A stretch of DNA of 64,000 nt from Mustelus asterias (lineage: Eukaryota): assembly GCF_964213995.1 (NCBI RefSeq), contig NC_135814.1, positions 57,784,001 to 57,848,000 of the forward strand. Direction: 5' to 3'. The notes beneath the pieces were generated by a model, which was not told the origin of the DNA, did no database searches, and saw only the letters and a program-made list of their open reading frames with translations. Below, one piece after another: positions 3,940 to 56,003 of the stretch (the first letter of the stretch is position 1; each line of letters begins with the position of its first letter). The translations under genes were made by a program, and so were the position numbers.

Positions 3940-6900
3940 CCCATCCAACACTACCATGCCTTACTTTCTCCTTCTGAAGCTGCCAACTACTCAAGGATTA
4001 TCCTGGAATGCAAATACACAGGTTCTTTTCTGTAATACCAACAGTCTCCTCAAACCCCTCTCCCCCTGCTACTCCCACACCTTCAAAAAGTGTAAGCAGC
4101 TCATTTTTTTGCCACTATGCTGGAGACCATCCATTCAGCTGCCTTTGCCACATACTCTTTAATAAGCTTCCAACAGAGTCCTCTCTTGCCCACCCTCTGA
4201 ACTCACATCTTTCTTTAATTTCTTTTCCATCCCTCCTCATGCCCTTTCCAAGCTCACGTTGTCAGCAAATCTCTGCTCCCTTGACCCTATTCCCACTGAA
4301 CTGCTAACCATCTAAATTTCTTTCAAGTCTCCTCAGGTATCGTTTCCTTCCCTATCAAAACTGCCACCTTCATCTCTCCCCTCAGAAACAAAACATTGTT
4401 GTACTTATTATCTGCACAAACGACCTGGCCTTCTCAAATATCACTTTCTTCAAAGTGCTTGAATAACCTTTCTGACCATAGAGCACTCATCTTCTTCAAC
4501 CTTCTTGGCCTCCCTGTACCCTCTGACACAATTATCGACACTATTCTCCGCCAATGTTTTCTGTTGTCTAGCTGAGTGATACTGTCTTTACCTGCTTCCA
4601 TTTTTTCCCTACCCACCTTAACCAAAGGATCTCCTTCCATGGCTTATCTTTTTGGTCACACACTATTAAGTCTGGAGTCCTCAAAAAATCTATTATTGGT
4701 CCACTCCTACACATCCATACTCTGCCTCCAGCAACATCTGAAGACATGACAACACGTCCCACAAGTACGCTGATCCCTCCAAATCCTCACTATTGCCATC
4801 GGATCACTTGCCCACTTTTCAGAGCTGGGTTAGACACGATTGCAACAACATGAATTTATATATAGTAGTGCCTTTAATGTAATAAAAATGTCCAATGGCA
4901 TGTCATGGGAGCATCATAAACAAAAAAAAACCTATGGAGTTACAATGGCAGAAGACCAAAACGTTGGTTAAATTAGGTTTTAGGAAGAAAAGAGAGATAG
5001 AGAGGTGCGAGGTTTAGGAGGGGAATTCCAGAGCTAAAGGTCCAGGCAGCTAAAGGCATGAGTACTAATGGTGGAGCAATAAAAATGGGGATCTCAATAG
5101 GCTAGAACTAAAGAAACACATATCTCAGTTGTAGAACTGGAGGAGATGACAGAGATAGGGAGGGGTGAGACCATGGAGGGATTTGAAAGTAAGGCTAAGA
5201 GTATTAAAATTGAGGCACCATTTAATCGGGAGCTAGTGTAGATCAATGGGCACAGGGGTAACGGGTGAATGGGACTGGGTGTGAGTTAACATGCAGGCAG
5301 CAGTATTTTGGATAACCTAAAGTTTACAGAGTGTAGAATGGGATAGGCTGGCCAAGACCACGTTGAAGGTTACCCAACAGCATGGATGAGGTTTCAGCAG
5401 CAAATTACCTGAGGCAGGGGCAGCATCAGGCAATCTTATGGAGATGGAAGCAGGCACACTTTGTGATGGCATGGATTTTAGGTTGAAAGCCCATCTCAAG
5501 ATCAAGTAAGGAAGCAAGGTTGCAAACTTTCCAGTTCAGTTGCCAGAGAGTTGAATAGAGTCGGTGTGCTGGGGAGCAGAGTTTGTGGATGGGACAGAAG
5601 ACAATGGATTATTTCAAAATATTTTTATAAATGTAAATATTTCCAACATTTAATTGGAGCAAATTTCTGCTCATCCAGTACTAAAGATCAGTCAAACTGT
5701 CTGACAATTCAAAAACAGTTCAAGGGTCAAGAGAGAAGGTGGTTATGTAGAGCTGGATATCATCAGTGTACATGTGGGAACTGGTGTGTTTTCAGATGAT
5801 GCATTTGAGAGACATGTAGATGAGAAATAAGAGAAAGCCACGGATAGATCTTTGGAGACACCAGAGATAGCAAAGTGGGAAAAAGAAAAGAAACATTGCA
5901 GATCATTCACTGGCAACAATTAGACAAGTAAGGATGGAGTCAGGCAAGTGAAGTCCCACCCAACTAGACAAAGGTGAAATAGTGTTCACAGAATCCCTAC
6001 AGTTCAGAAGGCCATTCAGCCCATCGTGCCTGCACTAGAGGAGGAGGCCGTTTGGCTCATCAAGCTTGCACCGACAACAATCCCACCCAGACCCTATCCC
6101 CGCAACCCCACGCATTCACCCTGCTAATCCCCCTGACACCAAGAGTCAATTTAGTATGGCCAATCAACCTAACCCGCACATCTTTGGAGTGTGGGAGGAA
6201 ACTGGAGCACCCAGAAGAAATCCACGCAGACACGGGGTGAACGTGCAAACTCCACACAGTCACTTGAGGCCAGAATTGAACCCGGGACCCTGAGAGAAGA
6301 ATGAGGAGGAATAGCTTATCTTTATCATAGTCACATAAGCAACTTATTCAAGGATTTTGGAGAAGAAAGGAAGGTTGGTATTGACAGTGAGTCAAGAGTT
6401 GGGATTCTAGAGGCAAAAAGTGACAAAGACAAATTTGAAGGATAATGGGTTAGTGCAAGAGGAAAGTGCGAACATCAGCAGCTAACTTTCAGTCAGAAAG
6501 AGAAATTTGATGGTAAGCAGGTTAATGGAAATAAGGTGAAAAGAGCAGAAGGTCAGCCTGACTAACAAATGAGTTCAGAAGGGACATATGGGGAGATAGT
6601 AGGAAAAGCCAAGAAACATAAAAGTTCAGGGCACCTTTACAGATGTGACCAAGCAGGCTAGAGGAAGGAAGGGAAGTGGCAGAGACAGCTGATTGGATGG
6701 TCTCAGTTCGAGTCACAAAGAGGTCCATGAACCTCTCGCATTTATTTAAAGTGAGGGTAGAAGAGACGGGAAGAGGAATTTAAATCAGGTTGCAGTAAAG
6801 AAACCAGGAGTTATATCTACATTCCACGATGATCTCAGAAGACAAACAAAAAGACCCAATAATGCATTACATGGTCCATCCAAATCTGGTTGTGAACAAC

Positions 6901-7700
6901 TAAGCCAGCTGATTGCCATAACTATCTAAGTCTGCATCTCTTGGACTTAACTGAGTACTGTACCTGGGGAATGACCAGATGAAAGAGAATAATAGTTTTA
7001 ATGTGGACTATGACATCAAAAGGTGGCTGTGAGGATGTGGTTGAACAGATTGGTAGCTACAGAAATGTTGTAGTAAACAAGGTCCAAAGCCCAGACAAAT
7101 GGGATTTTGAAAGTGCAACTGGGATGGAATCTTTTCCCTGGGGTAGACACAGTGGGACTTGGGGTTGGGAGAAAGAAGGATATTGGTGGACAGCAATACG
7201 CTGAAATCAAAGATGACCTTATCTGCAATTGATACAATGGGAGTACCAATGCCTGAGATGGCATGGTCAAGGTAGCCGTTAATACCCGTTGGAGAGTGTA
7301 CATGGAGTGAGAGAAAAAGGAAGGATTAGAGGGCAGTTAACTCAGAAGAGAGTGAACACAATAAATTGAGAAGGAAATTGAAATTATAGATGAGAAGTTA
7401 CTTGGTACAGAGGATAAGGGAGTAAAACAGCTGAAGATAACTATGAGAAAACTGGGCATGGTGTTTGAATGGGCAATAGAGAACAAGGATTTCAAATAAG
7501 AAGTCAGAAGGGTGCGACAAAGTGAGATGCTCAAAAAGGAAGAGGAAGTGTCACATACGTAAGCGGGCAGATCAAGGTGTGACTTTGATAAGAGGCACAT
7601 TTCCCACCACAATGGCCGAGGCAGGACAAGCAGTCAGGTGGGGAGGCATCATTTAGGGTGAAGACATCATCACCCCAGGTTTACATCAAGGTTAGGATGA
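3940..7700. mobile_element. Highly decayed L2-type LINE fragments in both orientations, interrupted by an HE1 SINE
   Basis: Pyrimidine-rich RT-like remnants on + (about 3940-4830). Purine-rich antisense copy from about 4840 beginning with an L2-type tail (caacaac...tttatatatagtagtgcctttaatgt). Recognised by eye only. Confidence 0.5.
5987..6292 (-). mobile_element. HE1-type SINE, 5'-truncated
   Basis: Reverse complement of the copy at 9585-9900 (tgtgtggagtttgcacgttc...gggtgctccagtttcctcccac) with a CR1-like tail. Confidence 0.85.
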
Positions 7701-8093
7701 TGGTGCACTCAATTAAAAACTGAAAAAGCCAAATTCACCATCTTCAACCCCAGCAAAAGCTTCATTCCCTTGCCACCAATTCCTCCCCTGCCCACTCTAG
7801 CTGAATCCCATTGTTCCCAACCTCAGAGTCCTATAAACCTGAACTTATCTAAAATGCTGCTGCCCACACCCTAACGTTCACCATGTCCCATTACTCCTGT
7901 GCTTGCAAGCTTACATTACCTCCAACTTCACAACTGTAAAATTAATCCCTCACCTCTTCCTGCCCTACAACTACCAAAAACTTTACATTTCTCCAAATCT
8001 GTATCCGCTGCCATCCTCTACCACTGCCTGCACCTCCCCCAACATCCCCAACTTACTGCACTCCACCGTCAATGGTTGTGCCTTCAATCATCT

Positions 8094-8308
8094 TTGATGT
8101 GGAGATGCCGGCATTGGACTGGGGTGGGCACAGTAAGAAGTCTCACAACACCAGGTTAAAGTCCAACAGGTTTATTTGGAATCACAAGCTTTTGGAGCAC
8201 TGCTGCTCCATTAGATGAGTGAATCACTCACCTAATGAAGGAGCAGTGCTCCAAAAGTTCGTGATTCCAAATAAACTTGATGGACTTTAACCTGGTATTG
8301 AGAGGCTT
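8094..8308. mobile_element. Penelope-terminus hairpin insertion A, with decayed hammerhead cores
   Basis: Inverted-repeat arms. 12-bp TSD CTTCAATCATCT at 8082-8093 and 8309-8320. Right arm CTAATGAAGGAGCAGTGCTCCAAAAG is a mutated CTGATGA...GAAA core. Confidence 0.8.
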
Positions 8309-9584
8309 CTTCAATCATCTATGCTTGAAGCTCTAGAATTTCCACCCATTCCTCCTTTAAGATCCTTTTTAAAACCTAACATTTTATCACCCAGCCTAAT
8401 AGCTTCTTTGGTTCAATGTCAATTTATGTCTAATTATGCTCCTGCGAAACACCTTCTGATATTGAATTTCTGTAATGCTTTCAATGTACTGTAGTTGTCA
8501 CATCATAAATTTCTTTTTTGAAAAATCTCAATTACCACAGCTTAGATAATCACAGGGCAAAGCAAAATTACAAATGTCTCAAATATTCAACTTTAATGCT
8601 ATATTAATTTGCTAAGCAGCTCAAATATCAATTAATTGATGGGCATTAATCAAAAATCAATTCATTTCGCAAGACCAGTAGTAAAAACTTCCAATCAACA
8701 TCCAGTATTTCAATCAACATCCAGTAATCACTAAACCAACCAAAACGCACTAGTTTTCAAGTCCAGAATGTTTTCTTTGCCTGCAGACTTTTCTAGTTTC
8801 TGTCGAGCCCGGATCTGGAGTTTCGTTTGGCTTGCAGCGCTTAGTGTTTACTTAGGCTTTTCTCCCAACATTTCCCAGGATCTGGACATGCTCGACCTCA
8901 ATTTTATGACCCATGACAATTAAAAAGCAACCATTTTTATGTCTGGTAAATTTCATTCTCTGCTGTTGTAATAAATATCAGAAATTTCTGCAACCCAAAT
9001 TTAACTCCATATGCCTGAATTAAGCCAAGTGACTCCAAAATACCCCCTTGCAAGTTAAACTTCTGAGCTTAGCCAAAGTGTACTATTGTAGCTTTATGTT
9101 TGAAGAACTAAGGGTGCCCGCCTCTCTAGTTCCCTCGGTTCAAGGGCAGGCCTCCCAAACCACCCCAGGTGAGCATTTGTGATTTAAAACTTCCCAGCGC
9201 ATTGGATTTGAAGTGCCTACTGACTGCTGAGACAGGCTAAATCAATAAGTACAAGCGGCTAAAATATGAAAGCTTAGCTCATTAACATTTAAAAGAAAAC
9301 TTCTGTGAAAACAATTTGCTTGAAAACCTAGCATGTAATTTTTTCTCTCTGTTCTTTTGTGGAAGATTGGTGAAAAGCCTAATTATGACAACAATATTGG
9401 GAGAAATAAATTTGCAACCTTAACAGTTACACATGCAAGGACTGTCTCCAAACTCAAAAACTGGAGATGCAAGTACTTTCTTTGCTACACTCCAAATAGG
9501 TGGAAAAGAAAGTGAAGTTAAAAAGAAACACAGATGTGTATCAGTAGCCAGCTGGCAGTTTGGCTCATAACTAATTTATCATAA

Positions 9585-9900: not shown

Positions 9901-10582
9901 ACTAGAAATATTTTAATAAAACAAATGGCTGGTATGGGGGAGATAGACTGTATTGAAACTGAATAGGAACAAACTGCAAAGAATATTGAGGTAGCAATTG
10001 AGAAATATTTAAACTCGATACGCTGGGGAAGAGTAGATGGGGTGCACAGGAAACAATCTCAGATGAGACAAGCCACAGGGTAGTCAACAGGTAGGTACGG
10101 ACAAGAATACTTCGAATGACATACAAGAGCAAAAACAAAGAAGGATTGGCAGGCATTAGGGAGTATGGAAGGAAGCATCTACAGAACTGTTGAAAGCACT
10201 AAAAGTAAGATTCCAGAACTCAAGGTTACAGTGGTGGGAGTCACCAAAGCATGGTTAAACCTGGAGGATTGAAATGAATTGAAATTCAAGGGTACTGAAT
10301 GTTCCAAAAATACACCAACAGAAAAGGAAGTGATGTGGCCTTATACAGCAGGGATATATATTAAGTACATGAAGTTGTTCCTGTGGGAAAAGGAAAAGTA
10401 AAGAGTCTTCAGCTTTGTGCATGGCTTTGATGAGTCAAGTGGTAAGACACATGACACAAAGTACCCAGATCTTGACCCTATCATTGTAGTCAGTGTTCAT
10501 GTAGCTGGTCTGGTAATGATTCGAGTCAATGGTCTACACGCAATTTTGACAGTGGGAGACAGCAATGGTGGTACTGTTGTAG

Positions 10583-10749
10583 TCATGATGTGGAGATGCC
10601 GGTGTTGGACTGGGGTAAACACAGTAAGAGTTTTAACAACACCAGGTTAAAGTCCAACAGGTTTATTTGGTAGCAAATGCCATTAACTGAAGCTAATGGC
10701 ATTTGCTACCAAATAAACCTGTTGGACTTTAACCTGGTGTTGTTAAAAC
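10583..10749. mobile_element. Penelope-terminus hairpin insertion B
   Basis: Perfect 57-bp inverted repeat (10629-10685 / 10694-10750). 14-bp TSD TGGTACTGTTGTAG at 10569-10582 and 10750-10763. Nested in a decayed LINE. Confidence 0.85.
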
Positions 10750-13424
10750 TGGTACTGTTGTAGATCAGAGGTGTGGTTCTGTTTCTTGTTGATGCTTCCA
10801 TGGCTTGCAAGATACCTGGGACTTGTCAGCCCAAGCCTGGCAATGAGCTGCTTCATCTCCAGATGGTTTGTAAATGGAGTGGAACCCCATGTAATCATCA
10901 GAAATATGCCCCAATCCTGGCCTCACAATGGAGGGAAGGTTGGGCCAAAGAAGATTCCCTAAGGATCTCTTTCATCAATGCCCTAGTCCTGCAACAATTA
11001 CCTTTGGACAACCTCAAAAATCTTCCTGGGCATCAAAAGTGACTCCAACCCCGAGAGAATTTTTCTCATGCCTCTAATTAGACTCCTTGTATCCACATTC
11101 AGCAAAATGCTGCTTGATGTAGAGTTCAGTTGTTCTCACTAACATGGATATTTGGTTTGGATCTATGCTGTGATGAGGTCCAGGGCAGAGTGGATTTGGT
11201 GGAACCTGAACTGAGTAGTGAATAGGTGTCGCTTGCTGGCACTTTTGATGCAGTCTTTCAACACCTTACTTATGATTGGAAGGTGTTTAATAAGGCAGCA
11301 ACTGATCAGGGTTGATGCATCTCATTTGTTTTATTGAGAAGAGGATATGGAGTGATTCTCCGCGCTGAGGCTGGGGCTGCGCAGGGTCGGAGAATTGTGG
11401 AGGAGGGGTTTAGCATGTTTAATACCAGGGAGAACCCTTTATGGGATTCTCCAAGACCACCGTGCCCCAATATAATCCGATTCTAGCCCACGAGGGCAAG
11501 ACCCAGAGTAGCATATTTAAATATGATTAAATATGATTCTTAGACCCTCTGACACAGCGGGAACCTGGCACGAATCACTACTGGTCTCCACAAACATATA
11601 CCAGCGGCTCAGAAGCCATTAAAGTCTACAGGTAGTCAGGGACATGGCTGGACAGTGCCCTCTCCATCTTCTACTAGGGTGCCAGGGGGCAAAGCATTGG
11701 GGATCTTTATTTGGGGGGAGGGGGTGCCCTTTAAAAATGGTGCCAATCTCTTTGAAGCCTGGCAATCGCATCGGGCATGCCGGTGCAAATCACACTGGTT
11801 TTCTCACCCAAAATGACACAGTAATTTTTTAGAAAAGTTCCTCCTTGCATCTGAAAACACGTCCACATTGTCTGGTGGTTGCCTATGTCATAACTGTAAT
11901 GGAACAGCCAAGTCTCAGGCATTGGTTCTCAGCTTCAAAAGCTACAAGAGTGCAAAGCTTTCCCTGTGCCCGCTGGATCGAGCAACTGTTTAATGCCACA
12001 TGGAATTAACTGAATTTGTTGGGCATGGACACCAACGATGGTAAGAGACACTAACTGAAAGGACAGAGTTTGCAAAACTACTCTGCAATCTCTTAAAGAC
12101 ATTTGCACATATCTCAGCTTTTATCTTTTCCACTCACAAATTGAACACTATCATGCTGAGAAAGGAAATGCTCATGGAGTCACTTTCTCTCACCATTCTG
12201 GACTGCAGGCAGCAGATACCAAGTTTTTTGCTCTGATTTATTGACTGGGGCATGTTTAACTCTGTCTATAGCCCATTGATTTTCAGCATACAGGTTGGTT
12301 CATATACAGTAGCTCATTTCAAGATGTGCCCTTCTACACATCCCACTGAACCAGAGTTAACCTTCCAGTCTGACGGTTATTAAGGAGCAAGGCATGTGCC
12401 AAAGGATGTTATAGATTGTACTGGTATGCAATTCTACTGATGTTAATAAACGCAGCAGATTAAGTATGCCCTTAATCTGCATCACTGAGTTATAGTAGTC
12501 CCACAGTACACAACAGAGGATGATCTGTACGGGGAGCCAGAACTTTGTCTTCACAAGGAATGTGCAAGAGTCACCCCTATCAACGCTACCATGGAGACAT
12601 TTCTGGTCAGTCTGTTCCAATGATGGGACAGAACATTATCTCAGGATAGTAACAAAGAAATCTGAGTTATTAGCTGAAAATCAAACTCAGAACCCAATCT
12701 ATATTAGGTTGTTGCTCAACGAATTTATTTGGACAATTGTCCCAACTTAGTTGTTGATACTAGGAAGAAAACTTTTGCAGGGCCCACTGGGCTGAACTTG
12801 TCGAATTCTTGTCCTGATCCAATAACTAGTTCATTGCAATCGGCTGATCTGATTTTTTTTCCCTTAATTTTGAACTTTATTGAGACTGTATTACAATTGA
12901 ATGATTTGCTAGATTACTTTAGTGGACCTGGAGGACAAGGTGGATTTTTAAAACAATAGCACCTTTCATGACTACAATCTCGCAAGGTTTCTGATTTATT
13001 AAATTTTAATTTAATAACTCAGCATGGGGGGTTACGACCTGATGGCCATTGTTTAGGGTGCAAGTCCAATATTTCAACTGCTATACCACTCTATCCCTAT
13101 TCCTGCCACAGCTATTACACAGCCCCTTCCAAATGATAAAGTCTTGGTGCCTGGCAAAAATCTCTTTACACCTCTGCTTCTTCCCCCAGCATTAAGCCAA
13201 GAAGCATCTCTTTACTCTTTAAAAGACCCAACAGTTGACATTCACTGCAAGTACAATCTGCTTTTCGAAGAATAAATTTTGGTTTTTTTCTAAACAGGGT
13301 TGTGTAAACAGTTTTAAATGAACATGGTATAGGAGTGGGACAAGAGATGGCAAGGGGAAATATGGACAAGGAGCAGTGTTAGACAGCAAGCATGAAACTA
13401 ATTGCTTCTCCAAATGTCTCTTTT

Positions 13425-16171: not shown

Positions 16172-17606
16172 CTGCATTAAAAGAAAAATAGGTGTTAAAA
16201 AATCCAATTAAATATATATTGATATAACTTCAAGTGTCCAAATAAATTGCACTTAGCATCAGTATGAACTGAATTTACTGGCCTTTTTTTAAAAAAGGTG
16301 TGGCTTCTCAACAGATGAGGAATATTTGAAGGTGAGATACATTTCCAATGCAAGCCCATTTTAAGTTATTTGAGTGTCAGTAGCGTAAGCAAACATGAAA
16401 TATGTCAAATGATGACACCAATCTGATGGCATGCTGCTTTATAAAATGAAAATATTACCACATGACCTCACCACATCCTCATCAAAATGTTAGCACATCT
16501 AGAAATAGCAAGGACTGCTAACTGACAGTAAATCTCGATCTATATCCTATATTCCCCCCCCTGCAAAAACTGCAGATTTACTTTTGATTCAAGTACAGAA
16601 AGGTGAAAAACACTGCAGTTGATATCACCTTTTATACTGTACAGCACTCAACAATCGCCATGCTTCCACAAAAGTGCCAAATCAATGCTCTAGTAAAACA
16701 AAGGATTCATAAAATTATAAATGTCTTCACAAAGCAGGGTGCCTTCGCTCCCCCCTTCCCACGAGAGAGGTCTGTGCAAGGAACAGCAAAAAAGAGGAGT
16801 GTGGTCACGTAAAAAAGGAAAAGGAACATAGAAACAGGAGGCAGCCATTCAACCCCTCAAGCCTGTTATACCATCCAAATATAGAGCATGGCCAATCTGT
16901 AGCATAACTCCATTATGGCTCCCTTTATTGGATTGCATGATTCGAGGAAACAACTCACTGCATATACTTGGTCAAACGACAACAAAATAAGGAATAAGGT
17001 AAAGAGTAGGGCAAGGAACAAGGAGGAAGTATTAGACCATCTCAAAAAATTACAAACAGTATTGCATTCTGCAAATATATCTGGAAAGAGAACTGTCAAA
17101 CAGGAGATGGGGCCCCTGAGAGAACTTAGTGAGTTGCTAAAGGATAAATGGAAATTTGCACTGATATTTAACAGGTACTTTGCAAGTGTTTACAAAAAGG
17201 GAAGGATATTAGTGGCGCACGGGGGGGGGGGCAGATAAATCTGAGGTGGTCAAAAGTGGGATGAGAAAATTAAACCAAAATTAAGCATTGAAGAAGTTAT
17301 TTAAGTAAAAGGACAAAGTGCTAGTGCCTGACACTGTACCTCCAAAGAAAAGAATGGAGGAAGGAGGCCCTGAAAAATTATGGCCCCAATTTAAACTATC
17401 CCCACTAAGCAAAAGCCAGGTGTTGGGGGCAGCTAAAATAGTGAGTCACTGTCATTTCTTGCCTGATTATGCTTCCCAAAATGCTTTGGTATTTTTCTAT
17501 ATTAAAAGCACCAGAGAAATCTAAATGATTGCTGTTATATCCATGATTTTGATGTAAATTAGCAATTGAACCCTGGGGCACCTCAATCACTGGTACCCCT
17601 TTTGAA

Positions 17607-17761
17607 GTCATGATGTGGAGATGCCAGCGTTGGACTGGGGTAAACACAGTAAGAAGTTTAACAACACCAGGTTAAAGTCCAACAGGTTTATTTGGTAAAA
17701 GTTTGCTACCAAATAAACCTGTTGGACTTTAACCTGGTGTTGTTAAACTTCTTACTGTGTT
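17607..17761. mobile_element. Penelope-terminus hairpin insertion C
   Basis: Perfect 61-bp inverted repeat (17637-17697 / 17707-17767). 13-bp TSD TACCCCTTTTGAA at 17594-17606 and 17762-17774. Confidence 0.85.
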
Positions 17762-18221
17762 TACCCCTTTTGAATGCAGCATTGCACGCTACCTGCTGTT
17801 CTCAATCAGACAATTCTTTTCTGTACCCAAATTTTTGTCTGCAACATAATTTTTTATTTTCAAAACCGACTCATAGGGTTTTCTGCAGCTGAAAGAAGCA
17901 TCCGGCAACAACTTCTTCCTCTCTACATCTTCACAGTATTGAAAAGACGTCACTGGACAGTTGCCTATTCTAACTCCATTCACTTTTTTTCCCTGGGAGT
18001 TCAAAATTGTGAACTTCTCCCTCACTTAATTCCTTATTCTTAGAATCAGCAGGTTTTGTAAAGCCAAGTTCAGCATCAGAATCATTCTTCTGCATTATTG
18101 GGTCAATAACCTTAACACCTTTAGGGAAACAACATCGACACACGTAAGCACATCATACAGGCAGTTTCTAACCACATTTGCAGGGAAAAGAGAGCTGAGA
18201 AAGAAATACAGCCTTGCCAAT

Positions 18222-44809: not shown

Positions 44810-45332
44810 ATGGATGCGACTTCCCTGCAGTACAAACTGACGTTAGAGACATCTAGCGATAAAACAGGAATACTGCAAGATGAAGTGCGGCCTACGGAAA
44901 TGGCACCAGTACTTCCCACTAACTGTGGCATTTCTTCTGCTATCGTCCCACCGTATTTGAAAACCACTTCAAGTGGAAAGTGCCATGGTTTGTACTCCGA
45001 AGATATTTCGACTTGTGGATCGTTCGGAAGCGCAGATCGGGAGACAGTTGCTATGTCACCTGCGGCAGGACAATTCCCAACAAACCAGTTTCGAAATGAC
45101 AGTCATATATCTTCGTTTACTAGCTACCGGCACAACCTGTGCACCAGAAGTGAATACCCTACAAACTGCCCAATTTACCAACATTGGCCTTTAGAATATC
45201 CCCGGGCTGCACCTGGCCAGACAGATCCCAACAATCAGGGCATGGCTGCTTTTAGCCATTCTCAGTACTGCGAGGCACCGTTTACAGGAGGAGCGCTCAA
45301 CCCTACAATAGCCGGTGTCCCAAGGCATTTAG
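44810..45332 (+). CDS. hoxd14: HoxD14 exon 1
   Basis: ATG preceded by an in-frame TAG. Open for 523 nt to donor TTAG|GTCAGT. Phase 1 joins exon 2 in frame. Confidence 0.85.
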
Positions 45333-46074
45333 GTCAGTCTGACAGCACATTCTCATACACTGTATACCTGTCTTTCCGTGTTAGATAAGTTAAGAATTGC
45401 GATATATGTTTTAAAATATTGTCTTTCCCTGTCTCTTAGTAACACCAGGTGCTCTGTATTTTACTTTCGACTGTTGCACTTACTGTGAACTGGGCATTCC
45501 ATCTTCAAATGCCATTTTGGAAAAATATGCCCATTAAACTTTAGGAGATCTAAAATAGTCCGTTTTCCCTTAGGGCGGTTATAAATCTCAGGATATATCT
45601 TCAACACGAGAAATATATAAAAGGGAGTGGTTAGTTTATGTTAGTCCGACTTAATTCAATTGCTCGATCTTTATTTCTCAATGAAACATTTCAGAGATCA
45701 AAGCAAAAAATGTGCTTCGTGCATAAAATATCCAAATGCAGCAAAAAGATCAACTGAAAATGATTTACTTTGGAAAAATGTGAATTATTCATTCAAATGA
45801 ACAAGGGGAGGGTTGAGAACCCAAAATGTGTAAATTATTACGAATATGTTTGATATTAATTCTCGTCACTGGACAATACATTTATTTGAGGATAAATTAA
45901 CGAACATCAATTAAAATAAGCGATGGTGAATGACACTGTTGTACGCTTTGTTAACATGGGGTTCGTGTAGACAGGAAAACGATATAAGAAGGTAAAGACA
46001 TATACGCTGCTGAGAATGTCAGTTATTGTGTTCGTGCTAATTCAACACGTTGACGGATCTGTGTGTTTCCCCAG

Positions 46075-46256
46075 CTTTGGGATATGCATCTCAATGGTCC
46101 ACATCACAAAACCCGATACATAGACAAAGGAAAAAACGAATTCCTTACAGCAAACAGCAAATCGCTGAACTGGAAATGGCCTTTGAAAATAATCGCTTCC
46201 TCACTCCTGAAGTTCGATTAAACATATCGTTCAAGTTAGGATTAACAGAAAGGCAG
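46075..46256 (+). CDS. hoxd14: HoxD14 exon 2 (homeodomain residues up to 44)
   Basis: ttccccag|(A)LGYASQWST...[45 protein letters not shown]|gtaaga. Confidence 0.95.
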
Positions 46257-46411
46257 GTAAGAGAATCCCCTTCCATTTTCTACAGGACACACCTGTCCCC
46301 GCAACGCCGTCTCTCTTACTAGTCAACAGGTGGGCGCAGCTTCTCCGCTGGAATATTAAAGGGGTTATTGTTAACCACCTGCCATTTTCAAATGATCTGT
46401 CTGTTTTTCAG

Positions 46412-46501
46412 GTCAAAATATGGTTTCAGAACCAGCGGCAGAAAGAGAAAAAGCTTCTCCGCGTTCAACAATCGGTAAAGTCAGGTTATCCCGGACTGTG
46501 A
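46412..46501 (+). CDS. hoxd14: HoxD14 exon 3 (recognition helix and C-terminus)
   Basis: tttttcag|VKIWFQNQRQKEKKLLRVQQSVKSGYPGL*. WFQNQR plus a split homeobox between evx2 and hoxd13 indicates paralog group 14. Total 264 aa. AATAAA at 46961. Confidence 0.95.
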   Translation, partial: VKIWFQNQRQKEKKLLRVQQSVKSGYPGL

Positions 46502-47256: not shown

Positions 47257-47369
47257 CAGTTTTAAAAGCTGTACAGTTTAAAGGTTCTACAGTTTAAAAG
47301 TTATACAAATTAAAAGTTATACAGTTTAAAAGCTATTAAAATTAAAACTTAAACAGCTTAAAAGTTATA
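47257..47369. repeat. Minisatellite, about 7 copies of a 16-bp unit (CAGTTTAAAAGTTATA)
   Basis: Degenerate tandem units read directly. Confidence 0.85.
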
Positions 47370-48704
47370 TATTTTTCCTGTTGATTTGGGGATAACCACA
47401 GATCGGTTTTCGGAAAGAAATAGAACAATTGAAATTATGTTTCATTGCGGTGGTTACGGAGGCGGAGTACTTTGCTATGGATTATTGAGCTCAAAAGAAT
47501 AAATACTTTTGTTTAATACCACAGTGAGCTATAATGGAACAGAGTGCTTTGTTTAACTGTAGAGGTAACTGGAACATCGGTCAGCCAAACCGATCCATGC
47601 TGTCCAAGTGCAATGTACTGATATTTCAGGGTATATTCTGAGTGTAATATCTGCTTACTTCTGATTTGTTCCCAATCGTCCCAGCATATTTATCCGCCCA
47701 ATTTATTTACCTGTGTAAATGGCAATATATTTATCGTTGCTTCAGAGCTGGAATCAGCTCGTGGGCTTGGAATGAAAACTTCACGAGGAAAGGAAAATAC
47801 TTCCAAATGGCCTCTTTCTGCACTGGAGGGATTGTATTGACTCCAGACCCATCGGCCCATTTTCTGCTGTGGTGGTCATATTGTTTAATTGCAAAGGGCG
47901 TATACCAGAGATGTGTTTTTCAAACCAGACAGCATAAAGCCAAGACCCGTCTCTGGTACATCTTCAATATAAATAACTGAAAACAAAAGTCACAGGTGAC
48001 CAAGAAAACAAGCCATCACTTATAGCCCACCACATTCTCCCAATACAGGAAATAAAATCATGCTGCCGTTCACGTGCCTGAAAAGCGATTACCCAATGAT
48101 TAGAGAAGTTGCAAGGAAGAAATATATTTTGAGCGATTGTCGGTCACAATTTCTTAACTCGTAATTTGACCAAAAGTCTGATTTGAATTTCAAAAGCCAC
48201 ACTCTGATATCTATTGTACATGTCCAAAGAAATGTTTTAAAAGTATAGCAAGCCCCACAGTAATTGGAGTAAAATTATTGTAATTAGTGATTTACAATTA
48301 GTCAGTCGAATCAATTATTTCTCAGATGTTTCAGTTTTCAAGCTCCTGACTGAATATTTAAAAAGGCTGTTAAGTATCACATTTGCTTTTGAAAACCTTG
48401 AATTTTGTCACTTTCAAAATTATTCTCCACGAAAAATGAAAAATGGTTTGAAGCACAATTATTTTTATGTAGGGAAACAGCAGTTAATTTGGGAAAAGCA
48501 ATGCCCTACAAGATGCAAAGTAATGAATGACTAGCTAATCTGCATTCGGTGATATTGGTTGAACAATGCCAGAACAGCAACTTGCTTTGTTCAAACAAAG
48601 CCACGGCTTTCTCTCCCTCATTATAATTCTATGTAGGACTATGTAGGATTTCTGAAACAGAAATCTTTAAGACTTATATTCTTCAAGCAGCTATGGAATA
48701 TAAT

Positions 48705-49005
48705 CAGCATGATAACCAGAGAGTCATACTGCAGAGGAACAGACCCTTCGGCCGACCATTTACATGCCTACCATCAAATACCAATCTATACTAATCCCAT
48801 TTACCAGCACTTGCAATTTAAGTGCTCCTCCAGATGCTTCTTAAATGTTGCGAGAGTTCTCGCTCCACCACCCTCCCAGGCAGCGTGTTCCATATTTCCA
48901 TCACCCTCTGGATGATTGTTTCCCCCTCAGATCCCCCTAAACTACTTACTCCTCACGTTAAACCTATACCCTTTGGTCTTAGACAACTCTGCCATGGGGA
49001 AAATA
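48705..49005 (-). mobile_element. CR1-clade LINE 3' fragment inside the Hox cluster
   Basis: GACCCTTCGGCCGACC...CTCCACCACCCTCCCAGGCAGCGTGTTCCATATTTCCATCACCCTCTGG, similar to 21650-21960. Confidence 0.7.
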
Positions 49006-49404
49006 CATAATAATTGCTGTCTAATTCTCCTGACAGACAGACACTGGCGGAATAACAGTTAATGCCTTTAGATTCAAAATCTTATGTCTATGTTTGCTCC
49101 CTTTCAACGTTCCCATTGCAAATCCCTATGTCTACCTTTATAATAGAAACTGCCAATGCAAACTTACCAACTTGGAATCAGCCTCCCGCCGGGTGCGCAG
49201 GTAGCGCCATCATTGGTGGGAAATGATAACTGCAGCGTGACAGGTTTACATCTTTTGTTTCCAAATGATGAGGTGGGAATTTAAAATTTGTCACTTTAAA
49301 ACCAGGGTTTAGTTAGGTCTCCACCCCCTGTCCGTTTTTTTTTTCAACTGCCCTTCAATAAGGTTTCACTAGTTATCGACTTTGGCTGTGCGATAGTCTT
49401 GTAG

Positions 49405-49604
49405 TAAGAAGTCTCACAACACCAGGTTAAAGTCCAACAGGTTTATTTGGTAGCAAATACCATAAGCTTTCGGAGCGCTGCTCCTTCGTCAGATGGAGTG
49501 GAAATGTGCTCTCAAAGAGTGCACAGAGACACAAAATCAAGTTACAGAATACTAATTAGAATGCGAATCCCTACAGCCAGCCAGGTCTTAAAGGTACAGA
49601 CATA
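49405..49604 (-). mobile_element. Penelope terminal-repeat fragment E (non-hairpin) inside the Hox cluster
   Basis: Same family as A-D. Perfect 13-bp TSD GATAGTCTTGTAG at 49392-49404 and 49605-49617. Confidence 0.85.
49460..49496 (-). ncRNA. Minimal type I hammerhead ribozyme motif
   Basis: Minus strand: CCAU-CUGACGA-A-GGAGC(AGC)GCUCC-GAAA-GCU-U-AUGG, giving stem I, core, stem II and a palindromic AGCU stem III. Confidence 0.7.
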
Positions 49605-52600
49605 GATAGTCTTGTAGACATTTGCGTCAAATTGTATTCAAGACCATTGCAAATCGTGGGGAAATAGCTATTTCAGCAGTGAAAGGTTTAACAGACACAC
49701 GATTGTATAACATATTGTTCAATTTGTTTGTGCATCAGACAAATGTATAAATAGTAAGGAGCACGAGAATGGCATGCGGTCCAAACAATTGAAATTGGCG
49801 GTGGTTAATTTTACAAACCAAGCTGTCGAATTGATTTATTTTCTATATCAATCTAGAGCAAAACAAGACACTGGGATGAGTATATCTTCAACACTTCCTT
49901 TAACATCACTCTCCAGACTGGGATTTCTGCTTGAAAAAATTATGAAATTCTTTTGAATGCATTATGGAAGCACGTTTACGTCAATGCCACTCTAATTCGT
50001 TGGCAGAGGCATAGATTTTGTCATTGGGACTATATTTGAATTCCAGACACCCTATCAGCATACTGTTTTCCCGCTCATTGATAGATTATGTGCCTTGCCA
50101 GTGAAATACATTTTAGGTGACGGTTTGGGCTGCTACAGTTAAAGTCATTTCGTATAGAATATATAGTCCAAGGGAAAATGAACGTCTATCAGACCCCAGA
50201 TAGATTCTGTGGTACCTTTATAGAAGAGCTGGCTTCAGAAACTAACATTTTCTTTCAAAATGCAATAGTTTTTACCTGACGAAGTTTCACACAAACTTGT
50301 TGCTCCGTGTACTGTCAACCCAGCAGACAATAAGACGCATTCAGTTATATTTATCGCTCAAAGGAACGTGACACTATTTTAATAACACATAACACCCGCT
50401 TTTGAATTAAGCAAATATTTTATTTCTAAATATGATTATATTCTCTTCAGATACGCAGAACTTCAAAACTGTTGAAATATTTGTATTGAGTTCACTCTAA
50501 GATGCTTAGACCGTGTGATGACCGTGTGCTGCAATATATTTATATTGCAATAAATTATTTTTGTAGGTTCAACTGAAACATACGTGCAAAAGGTGAGGGA
50601 GGAGACTTTCACAACATCAAGTGATTAATTGGTTGCGAGCAATGTCAGATTAAAAATATATTTCGTCACCCTGATTATTGGTGACAGACTAAACCCATTT
50701 TATGTAGGTGCATTTTAACTGCAAGGGTAATTTTTCTGTATGTCTGAAACATCTCAAGCAAATTTCGATCTAGTTTTAGCAACTGTTTAGGATTTAATTT
50801 CAAAAACGTATGGTAAGTAATATGGTTGGAACTGTGACAGCTAGGGACAGTTCATACTTATTTTCCAATTGGGAAGAAAAAATATGGTGAACATTTTGTG
50901 GCGTGTAATCTGGTTTCATTCATGTATTAATATCAACCATTACGTTTGACTAAAAAGACATGTTTACGATATTGTGCTTTCAAACGGGACTCATATGACC
51001 TGTAACATAGTCAGTCTCACTTTAATAAATATTGCTAGCTGGATATATAAATTATCAACTTTTTTAAAACATCTATTATCGTTAACTAATTTTAGAGAAA
51101 ATCCCCTTAAGTACATACTTCCGCATTCTGAATTTCAAATTTAACATGCTTGCAGCTCAAGTTTCAGCGAGTAATTTTGCACGTACTATATTGTGTGGTC
51201 CCCTGCTCCACGAATTCAGGGTGCAAATAATCCAACAGTGGTTAGGATTCAGAAAAGCTTGTTTTCTAATAGTTACAATTAGAAAAATATGTAACAGGTT
51301 GTGTAAAAGAAAATAATCACTAATAATTCATAGCGATTGTTGACAATTATTTTTAAAATGGCAAGGTATAAAAAAAGAATTATCCATATAATCAGTTTCG
51401 AGCTTAAACCAGAAATTTTATTATTGTTTTATGGTAACAAATGGCTTGATGCGCCAAAGATCATTCAGAATAACACCTTACAAATATGTTAAACAATAAA
51501 TGCTATTTTCAATAACGCAAGTACCGGTTTGAATAGATCAAGTAAATCGCAGCAATGGAAAGAATATCAATTTTAATGATCAAAGAAGCATAAAGGACGT
51601 TTTATATTTCGGAGGAAGATTCCCCAGTCACGGCTGTCCACAGAATTCACAAAGCGACAGTGAAAAGTTGATGTTGAACTTCGCCGGGAATGGGGGCGGG
51701 GGGGGGGGGGGGGGGGTGGAGAGAGGAGTAGAGAATTGCTCGGAAGCAACATAATGTTCCAATAAATTCCCCCTTCTTTAAAAATGAAAATGTTGCAATT
51801 CTGTGAAGTGAATGATATCAGCACATGATAGTAAATAACATTGAGAAGAAGCAACATTCAAACAGCAACATTTTCTGTCACCCTTTGTCAACAACATGCG
51901 GATTGTTAATATTTACAACAACTGGCTCCCTCCTTTTGTTTTGTTCTGGGATACAAGCGAAGACGGCAAGGTCACATCTACTGCCCATCCCTAGCTTGGC
52001 TCGAAAATTGGTATCGGGCCTTCGCCATTAGCCTCTTGAATCTTGTTCCATTTTCGAGTGTCTTATTTGCCAAATGATTCAGAATCAGAAAGTTAACGCA
52101 CGTTCCTATATGTAAATTAGTGTTTAACTTTATATGGCACCACAGGTATTACTAACCTGACATGGTTTAGCAAGAGCATACAATTTTGCAAAGCTATGTT
52201 ATAATTCACAGCTAACTTCAATCTTTTGAAATGTTCACATAAATCCAACGGAGCTGTTGAGTTCTTTAAACCGCTATTTACCATCTTTCTTTTCCTCTCC
52301 CTCGCCCCCTCCCTCTCTCTCCACCTTGACCTTGGACTTCATCTACTTCCGGCAAGAACCCCTTTGTCTACATTGCCATTGATGCGACCAACTTGAGACA
52401 GCGACATACTTTTAAATCCGATCCTGCGCTTTGGCCGGAATTCTAAATAAAAGTAGCCATCCGAAATAAGTCGCTAGCACGTTTCTGCTTTCCTCTCACT
52501 GAAAATGGGAACTGCTCACTTGCTATTTGTTTTCGTTTTCTGACGAAAGACACGGCCCGCATGCTCTTAAATAAAGACGCTGCACCTATTCAAATTAGAT

Positions 52601-54723: not shown

Positions 54724-55411
54724 ATGACAGCTTCTTTTCTTTCAGCCCCTTGGAGGACTGATACAATCAGGTACCTACACAACAGAAACAACACAGCTAA
54801 CTCGGACATGGAAGGACTGGGAGGGAACGTCCCTTCAAATCAATGCAGGAATTTTCTGTCTCCCTCTGCATTTGGAGCTCATCACAACTCGTTATCTTCG
54901 GGTCCCGCTTACTCCGTCGGAGATCGAACGCATTCTGTCATTTCTGAATCTGCTAAGCAATGCAGCCCATGCCCAGCTCCGACAAGCCCTCCAAACCCAG
55001 CGATCAGTTACGGCTATCATTTTGGAAGCAGCTATTACAGTTGTCGTAATGTTGGCATTCAGCAAACTGGACTGAAACCTGGTGCGCATGCATCTCTAGC
55101 CGGTTACCCAGTGGACAAATACATGGACGTTTCGGGTTTGACTAATACCCCTGTCCCCCCTGACGAGGTGTCATCCAGGGCAAAAGAATTTGCATTTTAT
55201 CAGAGCTACCCCAATCCATACCAACGGGTCTCTGGTTATTTGGACGTTCCAGTTGTCCCCACAATAAGCGGCCACGGAGAGCCAAGGCATGAAGCCTTAA
55301 TTTCCATGGAGGGCTATCAGCCCTGGTCATTTGCTAATGGCTGGAACGGGCAAGTGTATTGTCCTAAAGATCAGACACAGACTCCACATTTTTGGAAATC
55401 TCCTCTCTCAG
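54724..55411 (+). CDS. hoxd13: HoxD13 exon 1 (alternative start ATG at 54808)
   Basis: [65 protein letters not shown]. Donor TCAG|GTATTA. Confidence 0.95.
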
Positions 55412-55752
55412 GTATTATGAAATAATTTTCACTGAAAAAAATTACAATTATTTTAAATTCAAAGGAAATAACATAATTCCAATTGGTTTGGTTTTTAATA
55501 TTGTCAGGAATTCGCTAGTTTTTAACAATTAATATATTTCGGATGAGTAACACCTGGAACACAGAATAACCATATGTGTGAATTAATGCGCTGGAATATG
55601 GGATTGGCCATATGACTAAATATCTCCGAGTTACTTAAAGTACGTTTCAAAACTCAAAAATGTGGGATAGGAATATTCTTTTTTTATAACATTCTTTGAA
55701 GTGCTACTGCTTTGAAGTTAAACGTTCTTCTAACTTGCATTTTCCCTCTCAG

Positions 55753-56003
55753 GAGACATGATGCACAATCAGACTGATATAAACATTTACAGGCGAGGGA
55801 GGAAAAAAAGGGTCCCTTACACGAAAACCCAGCTCAAAGAACTGGAGCGAGAGTACGCCACAAACAAATTCATAACCAAGGAAAAACGACGCAGGATATC
55901 AACAGCCACCAACCTGACCGAGAGACAAGTTACCATCTGGTTTCAGAACAGGAGAGTCAAAGAGAAGAAAGTGGTTTCCAAAGTCAAAGAAAATATACCT
56001 TGA
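55753..56003 (+). CDS. hoxd13: HoxD13 exon 2 (homeodomain)
   Basis: ctctcag|..[60 protein letters not shown]. Confidence 0.97.

What the first reader, a model, noticed from the sequence alone, without database searches (positions are those of the whole stretch)
49392..49617. Apparently intact minimal hammerhead ribozyme inserted inside the HoxD cluster, between hoxd14 and hoxd13
Seen: a 200-bp insertion with a perfect 13-bp TSD. Its minus strand reads CCAU CUGACGA A GGAGC AGC GCUCC GAAA GCU U AUGG: all core nucleotides, a 4-bp stem I, a 5-bp stem II, an extra A after A9, and a loopless palindromic AGCU stem III. Established: Penelope-like elements carry minimal type I hammerheads thought to cleave as dimers, and gnathostome Hox clusters largely exclude transposons. 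Inference: any antisense transcript running from hoxd13 towards hoxd14/evx2 would carry a potential self-cleaving motif. The homologous cores in copy A have decayed while this one has not, which could mean either youth or constraint.
Basis: partly seen in the sequence, partly recalled or inferred. Interest (0 to 1): 0.7.

Follow-up and report, generated by a model that had tools for sequence, protein, structure and literature searches.

The report
Young Penelope stub in HoxD spacer
This is a 200-base end-fragment of a very common jumping gene that landed, likely recently, between two Hox genes; it carries that element's usual small hammerhead ribozyme motif, found letter for letter in about 3,600 places in the same genome, and is likely an inert passenger.

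Summary
Observation confirmed: a 200-bp insert (49405-49604) between 13-nt direct repeats carries a complete minimal type I hammerhead motif on the minus strand (49496-49460). It is the 5'-truncated, tail-less 3' end of a Penelope-like retroelement: paralogs run on into RT and GIY-YIG frames. Youth, not constraint, explains the intact core. The 37-nt motif occurs exactly 3,596 times in this genome; 22 of 30 copies picked without regard to the core keep it; this copy has no private base against 29 paralogs; 4 of 4 other-organism runs with flanks 3-6% diverged lack it at this site. They also show that the 'perfect TSD' came with loss of about 10 target bases. It is the only copy of the family in the 111-kb cluster (about 4.7 expected) and has no same-strand partner for dimer cleavage nearer than 123 kb. 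Cleavage and transcription were not testable. The scan noted the same family before on other DNA, including this genome. Ordinary; new member of a known kind.

The parts
49405..49604 (-). 5'-truncated, tail-less 3' end (pseudo-LTR piece) of an endonuclease-positive Penelope-like retroelement; element sense is the minus strand
   Evidence: 40 best-scored genomic matches 94-100% identical over nearly the whole length, self included; paralogs L003, L008, L014, L022 continue upstream into the end of the RT/GIY-YIG frame, whose stop lies about 95-115 nt before this piece
49460..49496 (-). Minimal type I hammerhead motif; predicted cut between 49464 and 49463 (C-U-U triplet)
   Evidence: sequence; descriptor scan; pair counts on family alignment A2; 3,596 exact copies
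49392..49404 (.). Original target bases, duplicated on the other side; last two bases also match the element end
   Evidence: present once in organism B's empty site
49605..49617 (.). Second copy of the 13 target bases; about 10 ancestral bases that followed them are missing in the window
   Evidence: X3 contig joins 49404 to 49618 with 10 other letters between; loose ends of X3, X12, X16, X18 show flank plus 9-10 extra letters
49442..49447 (-). AAUAAA hexamer inside the element, 16 nt after the predicted cut; part of the 35-nt stretch shared by 154,065 copies
44811..46501 (+). Upstream neighbour: Hox14-type gene (recalled name hoxd14), homeobox split by a 155-nt intron at 46257-46411
54724..55966 (+). 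Downstream neighbour: Hox13 gene (recalled name hoxd13); end coordinate is the end of the homeobox helix-3 match, not the stop
   Evidence: Pfam HoxA13_N; homeodomain at 55935
48716..49003 (.). Second, older interspersed repeat in the same spacer (not part of the insertion; shows the spacer tolerates insertions)
   Evidence: 39 other places among the 40 scored candidates, 74-86% identical, 1,949 first-look candidates

Best explanation
The insert is the last 200 bases of a high-copy Penelope-like retroelement (likely Neptune-type) that likely inserted recently, in this lineage only, into the spacer between the Hox14 and Hox13 genes, and its hammerhead motif is the element's stock ribozyme, likely inert here. 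Mechanism: (shown) full elements of the family encode RT plus C-terminal GIY-YIG and end in a repeat that carries the hammerhead; (shown) this copy stops at the tail-less end used by 17 of 30 sampled copies; (inferred from the anole element's biochemistry) the endonuclease nicked the target and RT started at the inner of two start sites on the RNA, then stopped after 200 nt; (inferred) repair of the other junction copied 13 target bases and lost about 10; (shown) the core is intact because the copy has no private change at all; (inferred) as a single loopless motif without the coding region that binds the element's protein and without a tandem partner, it would cleave little or not at all even if transcribed.
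For: 3,596 exact copies of the 37-mer, control 0; 154,065 exact copies of the neighbouring 35-mer. Paralogs continue into RVT_1 (E 7e-10, 1e-9) and GIY-YIG (E 3e-4 to 4e-4) frames, with CX4CX2C linker and CCHH residues. 22 of 30 copies sampled by a pattern outside the ribozyme keep the core. Every one of 198 bases is shared with at least 8 of 29 top paralogs; nearest differs at 2 sites. Empty site bridged by a 25.7-kb contig in organism B and flank rather than element before 49618/49622 in 4 of 4 runs from 4 studies, flanks 3.0-5.7% diverged. Only 1 of 3 descriptor hits in 224 kb lies in the cluster; next same-strand one is 123 kb away. Literature: monomeric min-HHR showed no detectable cleavage, dimers low (PMC4209133); anole PLE hammerhead needed the element's protein, which binds the first 172 nt of the ORF, and no RNA-seq reads ended at its cut site (PMC11167929).
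Against: It is the only family copy in a cluster that is strongly depleted of repeats (about 0.5% against 15-33% in the flanks); survival there could mean benefit, though 1 observed against 4.7 expected is unremarkable (P(<=1) 0.054). The filled allele is the only one seen in the own-sample run X1, so it may be fixed. GIY-YIG scores (20.9, 21.5 bits) fall just under Pfam's cut-off of 22.6. Stems I and II do form in silico in a 62-nt and partly in a 400-nt context. No RT tree was built, so 'Neptune-type' rests on one motif. X12, X16 and X18 share most flank changes and may be one close group, so the four runs are at least two, not four, independent lineages.
Confidence: 0.9

Rival explanations
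1. Young insertion with an incidental effect: a minus-strand RNA from the Hox13 side reaches it and is ended there, by cleavage helped in trans (pairing with another element RNA through the AGCU palindrome, or the element's protein) or by the element's AAUAAA; or the pseudo-LTR piece supplies a cryptic promoter pointing at the 3' end of the Hox14 gene.
For: Intact core and stems; thousands of potential trans partners in the genome; AAUAAA at 49447-49442; PLE terminal repeats are reported to hold promoters (passage in PMC6765202); cluster depletion makes any survivor worth a look.
Against: No transcript is shown. Six other minus-strand AATAAA hexamers lie between the Hox13 start codon and the insert. 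A one-core dimer fold scores -18.9 against -24.0 kcal/mol for two monomers (core contacts are not modelled). The stub lacks the coding region that bound protein in the anole element (PMC11167929).
Confidence: 0.07
2. Domesticated, conserved ribozyme regulating the posterior HoxD cluster, like the mammalian Clec2 3' UTR or RECK intron hammerheads.
For: Intact core inside a repeat-poor cluster.
Against: Absent at the orthologous site in 4 of 4 other-organism runs; no sign that the core is better kept than the rest of the insert, since nothing in it has changed; both 13-nt copies share a base that differs from all four relatives, so the duplication post-dates a lineage-specific substitution.
Confidence: 0.01
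3. A self-propagating non-autonomous unit (retrozyme or SINE-like) of about 200 nt rather than a truncated PLE.
For: Several top paralogs end within a few bases of the same 5' point.
Against: That set was ranked by similarity to this 200-mer, which selects such ends; many paralogs continue into the coding frame; no tandem array here, whereas the retrozyme definition asks for two or more consecutive hammerhead units (bioRxiv 10.64898/2026.07.22.740005).
Confidence: 0.02

Closest known systems
Minimal hammerheads (min-HHR) in the pseudo-LTRs of metazoan Penelope-like elements (Cervera and de la Pena 2014, PMC4209133; parts 1-2 of 4 read)
   Same: Type I, 4-bp helix I, unpaired base between 9 and 10.1, G10.1-C11.1, palindromic 15.2-16.2 with no loop 3, thousands of dispersed single copies from truncated elements, compensatory changes between subfamilies.
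   Different: Helix II is 5 bp (7-8 bp in the Schistosoma families); sharks are not named in the parts read; far more copies here (3,596 exact for one variant) than the 4,000-9,000 totals given for coelacanth and Xenopus would suggest per variant.
5'-truncated insertions of EN+ Penelope-like elements, Neptune type (Craig et al. 2021, PMC8557442; passages)
   Same: RT plus C-terminal GIY-YIG with CCHH, CX2-5CxxC linker (absent in Penelope/Poseidon), 5' truncation, adjacent inverted copies, optional 30-40-bp tail.
   Different: Clade not confirmed by an RT tree; this copy is single, without inverted partner or tail, and its junction is a duplication plus deletion.
Poseidon element of the green anole, PAc (Frangieh et al. 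2024, PMC11167929; parts 1-2 of 4 read)
   Same: Two alternative 3' ends separated by the tail (here 13 of 30 with tail, 17 without); hammerhead near the end of the repeat.
   Different: PAc is Penelope/Poseidon clade and its ORF starts inside stem II; no such start is seen here (the only AUG in the motif, at 49463, meets a stop after six codons).
Transposon insertions in vertebrate Hox clusters (lizard data in PMC9498476; passages)
   Same: Penelope is listed among the repeats inside lizard Hox clusters; human clusters hold about 2% repeats, mostly in wide spacers and at the ends.
   Different: This cluster is not invaded: about 0.5% by a partial library, one Penelope copy.

Membership tests
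Metazoan PLE minimal hammerhead (type I) | Conserved core C3-U4-G5-A6-N7-G8-A9, G12-A13-A14, A15.1-U16.1, H17 | tested here: met
   H17 is U, as in 15 of 22 intact sampled copies
Metazoan PLE minimal hammerhead (type I) | Extra base between 9 and 10.1; G10.1-C11.1 pair; palindromic 15.2-16.2 | tested here: met
   (G-C in 33 and G-U in 3 of 36; A-U 36 of 36; G-C 35 of 36)
Metazoan PLE minimal hammerhead (type I) | Helices I and II supported by compensatory change | tested here: met
   95.2% of 395 cells paired, 14 two-sided changes (13 at one pair, so largely one event); rows were chosen for an intact core, 36 of 45 variants used, and relatedness inflates the shuffle control
Metazoan PLE minimal hammerhead (type I) | Second copy in tandem on the same RNA for dimer cleavage | tested here: not met
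   nearest same-strand descriptor hit 123 kb away, beyond the last homeobox
Metazoan PLE minimal hammerhead (type I) | Self-cleavage at the predicted site | not testable with these tools
   needs bench assay
Rfam hammerhead families (canonical) | Score at or above gathering threshold | tested here: not met
   0 hits in the window; no hammerhead family up to E 10 on 49300-49700
EN+ Penelope-like element | RT and C-terminal GIY-YIG encoded upstream of the terminal repeat | tested here: met
   in paralogs, not in this stub: RVT_1 above cut-off in 2 of 2 RT pieces, GIY-YIG just under cut-off in 2 of 2 EN pieces; frames interrupted in the copies seen
EN+ Penelope-like element | CCHH motif with two Cys between GIY and YIG | tested here: met
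   read by eye in L015 translation
EN+ Penelope-like element | 5' truncation, adjacent inverted copies, optional 30-40-bp tail | tested here: met
   inverted partners in L005, L009, L010, L017, L031, L034 and others; tail in 13 of 30
Neptune clade | CX2-5CxxC zinc-finger linker between RT and EN | tested here: met
   the motif also occurs in Naiads, which have the EN at the N-terminus (PMC8557442)
Neptune clade | RT phylogeny groups with Neptune | not tested
Non-LTR retrozyme | Tandem array of two or more hammerhead units | tested here: not met
   single copy
Domesticated genic hammerhead | Present at the orthologous site across species | tested here: not met
   absent in 4 of 4 other-organism runs
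Classical TPRT target-site duplication | Empty site equals filled site minus insert and one repeat copy | tested here: not met
   empty sites hold 9-10 further bases; a prior independent deletion at exactly this boundary is not excluded

The most novel reading that the evidence does not exclude
A brand-new retroelement ribozyme, the only one in the HoxD cluster, cuts a minus-strand RNA running from the Hox13 promoter towards Hox14/evx with help in trans (another element RNA pairing through the palindrome, or the element's protein), giving this one lineage a new RNA boundary at the posterior end of the cluster: exaptation caught at its start.
Probability: 0.03. Interest if true: 0.6.

Novelty: new member of a known kind. 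Interest (0 to 1): 0.12.

Why it matters
As it stands, little: it is one of thousands of identical stubs of a known element class. It is a usable lineage marker (filled here, empty in relatives) and shows that the Hox14-Hox13 spacer, which already holds an older repeat, is one of the places where this repeat-poor cluster tolerates insertions. The junction (13-nt duplication plus about 10-nt loss) is a small data point on how Penelope-like insertions are finished. It would matter more only if a transcript were shown to end at the ribozyme, because that would show a dispersed single PLE hammerhead cutting a host RNA in vivo.

Tried and rejected
Rfam at gathering and E-value thresholds: no hammerhead hit. 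Folding z-score of the 46-nt motif not significant. Expression: no RNA holder listed among 23 runs; this blank is no evidence either way, and all runs laid were contigs, which show neither strand nor ends. Polymorphism within the species: own-study runs X1 and X4 laid; X1 shows only the filled allele but the tool said some joints were not counted, X4 and organism C's X8 do not cover the junction; unresolved. A TSD search in 29 paralogs by longest shared word was too crude to count. The idea that U17 marks this copy as defective was dropped: U is the commonest base there (15 of 22); that U17 cleaves more slowly than C or A is recalled, and the one paper checked (PMC6908138, passages) only confirms the NUH rule and reports suppression at a CUU site. 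Counts on the 30-copy sample used an anchor shifted by one base and misread L072 and L075; one search replaces them. Papers not held: Luense et al. on dimer cleavage (title seen only in a reference list), Di-Poi et al. 2009 and a shark-genome paper. Searches for a published shark PLE hammerhead or one in a Hox cluster listed 1, 2, 3 and 3 papers, none on this; one search listed 0. No supplements were read; those of PMC4209133 may list cartilaginous-fish motifs.

Full report
The observation. The window holds a 13-nt direct repeat at 49392-49404 and 49605-49617 with 200 nt between. RNAfold forms stems I and II in the isolated motif, but the fold is not more stable than shuffles (z -1.13), and Rfam has no hit at gathering level in the window or for a hammerhead family up to E 10 locally. 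The insert lies 2.9 kb after the stop of a homeobox gene whose homeobox is split by an intron and 5.1 kb before a Hox13 gene. Extending the window by 160 kb shows 12 same-strand homeoboxes from 46.4 to 149.1 kb and an opposite-strand evx-like gene at 38 kb. The names hoxd14, hoxd13, evx2 and 'shark' are recalled assignments that fit this layout; one listed run is labelled shark metagenome.

What it is. The 200-mer has at least 39 other near-full-length matches at 94-99% identity among the 40 candidates scored. Several continue upstream into a reading frame whose stop lies about 100 nt before the 200-mer. Two RT pieces hit RVT_1 above cut-off and two C-terminal pieces hit GIY-YIG just under cut-off; the frame carries a CX4CX2C linker and the CCHH residues. 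By the passages read in PMC8557442 that is an endonuclease-positive Penelope-like element, with the linker that Penelope/Poseidon lacks, so probably Neptune-type; no tree was built. The family shows the other listed hallmarks: adjacent inverted copies and two alternative 3' ends about 38 nt apart, with the tail in 13 of 30 sampled copies and without it in 17. The window copy ends at the tail-less point. PMC11167929 (parts 1-2 of 4 read) traces these two ends to two reverse-transcription start sites in the anole element.

The hammerhead is a family trait. The exact 37-nt motif occurs 3,596 times in the 3.68-Gb assembly (1,806 + 1,790; reversed control 0), and a 35-nt stretch next to it 154,065 times. 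Of the first 30 places returned for that 35-mer, a sample blind to the ribozyme though limited to the start of one contig and containing neighbouring pairs, 22 keep the core and 19 also keep AGCU and at least 3 bp of stem I. Across 36 of 45 distinct core-bearing variants, 95.2% of 395 cells pair, slid controls give 32-47%, and the stem I closing pair swaps between U-A (22) and C-G (13); rows were chosen for an intact core and are related, so this supports the fold at family level only. All four features that PMC4209133 (parts 1-2 of 4 read) lists for metazoan PLE min-HHRs are present.

Youth or constraint. Against 29 top paralogs, no base of 198 is private to this copy; the three minority letters are shared by 8, 11 and 14 of 29, and the nearest paralog differs at 2 sites. 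A 25.7-kb contig of organism B bridges the site, joining 49404 to 49618. In one search, 4 of 4 runs from four studies show left-flank sequence, not element, just before 49618 or 49622; their right flanks differ from the window by 3.0% (X3), 5.4% (X12), 5.7% (X16, first contig) and 5.0% (X18). X12, X16 and X18 share most changes and may be one close group; only X3 was shown to bridge both flanks at length. Both 13-nt copies in the window carry a T where all four relatives have A, so the duplication post-dates a lineage-specific substitution. Even at 1.5% neutral change, 37 nt would stay unchanged 57% of the time. Constraint is not needed, and the contrast with the decayed pair at 8.1-8.3 kb is one of subfamily and age.

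The junction. The relatives carry 9-10 bases after the 13-mer that the window lacks on both sides. The simplest reading is that insertion copied 13 target bases and lost about 10, as template-switching repair would (inferred). An earlier, independent deletion ending exactly at the repeat boundary cannot be excluded but is unlikely, since organism B shows only 3 gap letters over 2 kb of flank.

The Hox context. With 63 fetched loci as a partial repeat library, five short intervals totalling about 610 nt (0.5%) match inside the 111-kb cluster, against 15% in the first 30 kb of the window and 33% at 160-220 kb. This insert is the only copy of the family and the only descriptor hit inside; the genome mean predicts 4.7 exact 35-mer matches, so one survivor is unremarkable (P(<=1) 0.054). 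The same spacer holds an older repeat at about 48716-49003 with matches at 74-86%. Penelope copies inside vertebrate Hox clusters are already reported for a lizard (passages in PMC9498476).

Would it work here? A loopless stem III needs a second copy. The nearest same-strand motif is 123 kb away, outside the cluster. PMC4209133 reports no detectable cleavage for a monomeric min-HHR and low activity for dimers; PMC11167929 reports that the anole PLE hammerhead cleaved only with the element's protein, whose binding was mapped to the first 172 nt of the ORF, and that no RNA-seq reads ended at the cut site. In silico, stem I has pairing probability about 0.9 in 62 nt, 0.06 in the 200-nt insert alone and 0.54 in 400 nt of context; a one-core dimer scores -18.9 against -24.0 kcal/mol for two monomers (core contacts unmodelled). 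Six minus-strand AATAAA hexamers lie between the Hox13 start codon and the insert, and a seventh inside it. No transcript could be tested.

Comparison with earlier notes. Nothing was on file near this place. A word search listed 8 notes on shark PLE hammerheads, one from this genome; they agree with the family reading that I had reached beforehand, and I confirmed only the copy-number order.

Verdict. Real, correctly described motif; ordinary origin; young and lineage-specific; most likely inert (0.9). A small chance remains (0.03) that it cuts a host antisense RNA with help in trans. Interest 0.12; new member of a known kind.

Noticed in passing
window 49392-49622: The '13-bp TSD' is accompanied by loss of about 10 target bases present in four relatives; organism B and the window also appear to share about 5 bases at 49617-49621 that the three more distant runs lack.
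   Followed up: partly
window 48716-49003: Older interspersed repeat (74-86% to other copies) 400 nt from the insert, in the same Hox14-Hox13 spacer; family not identified.
   Followed up: partly
window 8090-8323, 10574-10770, 17591-17768, 28530-28679: Four head-to-head fold-back stubs of the same element family outside the cluster, each with the tail on one arm only; only the first retains (changed) hammerhead cores.
   Followed up: partly
window 46257-46411: 155-nt phase-0 intron inside the homeobox of the Hox14-type gene; the three exons read open to a stop at 46501.
   Followed up: partly
window 47262-47373: Degenerate 16-nt tandem repeat (about 7 units) 0.8 kb after the Hox14-type gene's stop.
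   Followed up: no
A2 alignment; L016, L018, L074 versus window 49508-49453: One subfamily can extend stem I by a 7-bp distal helix beyond a one-sided bulge (seen by eye); the window's subfamily has two mismatches in that helix. Position 17 varies among U, A and C between subfamilies.
   Followed up: no
L036 (extended coordinate 83078-83139), L039 (104781-104861), L042 (135419-135536): Three further short repeat-matching pieces inside the Hox cluster (locus ids assigned from the 10-kb tiling; the first may fall in L036, the second in L039, the third in L042).
   Followed up: no
window 49463 (minus strand): The first three bases after the predicted cut are AUG, but the frame closes after six codons.
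   Followed up: yes
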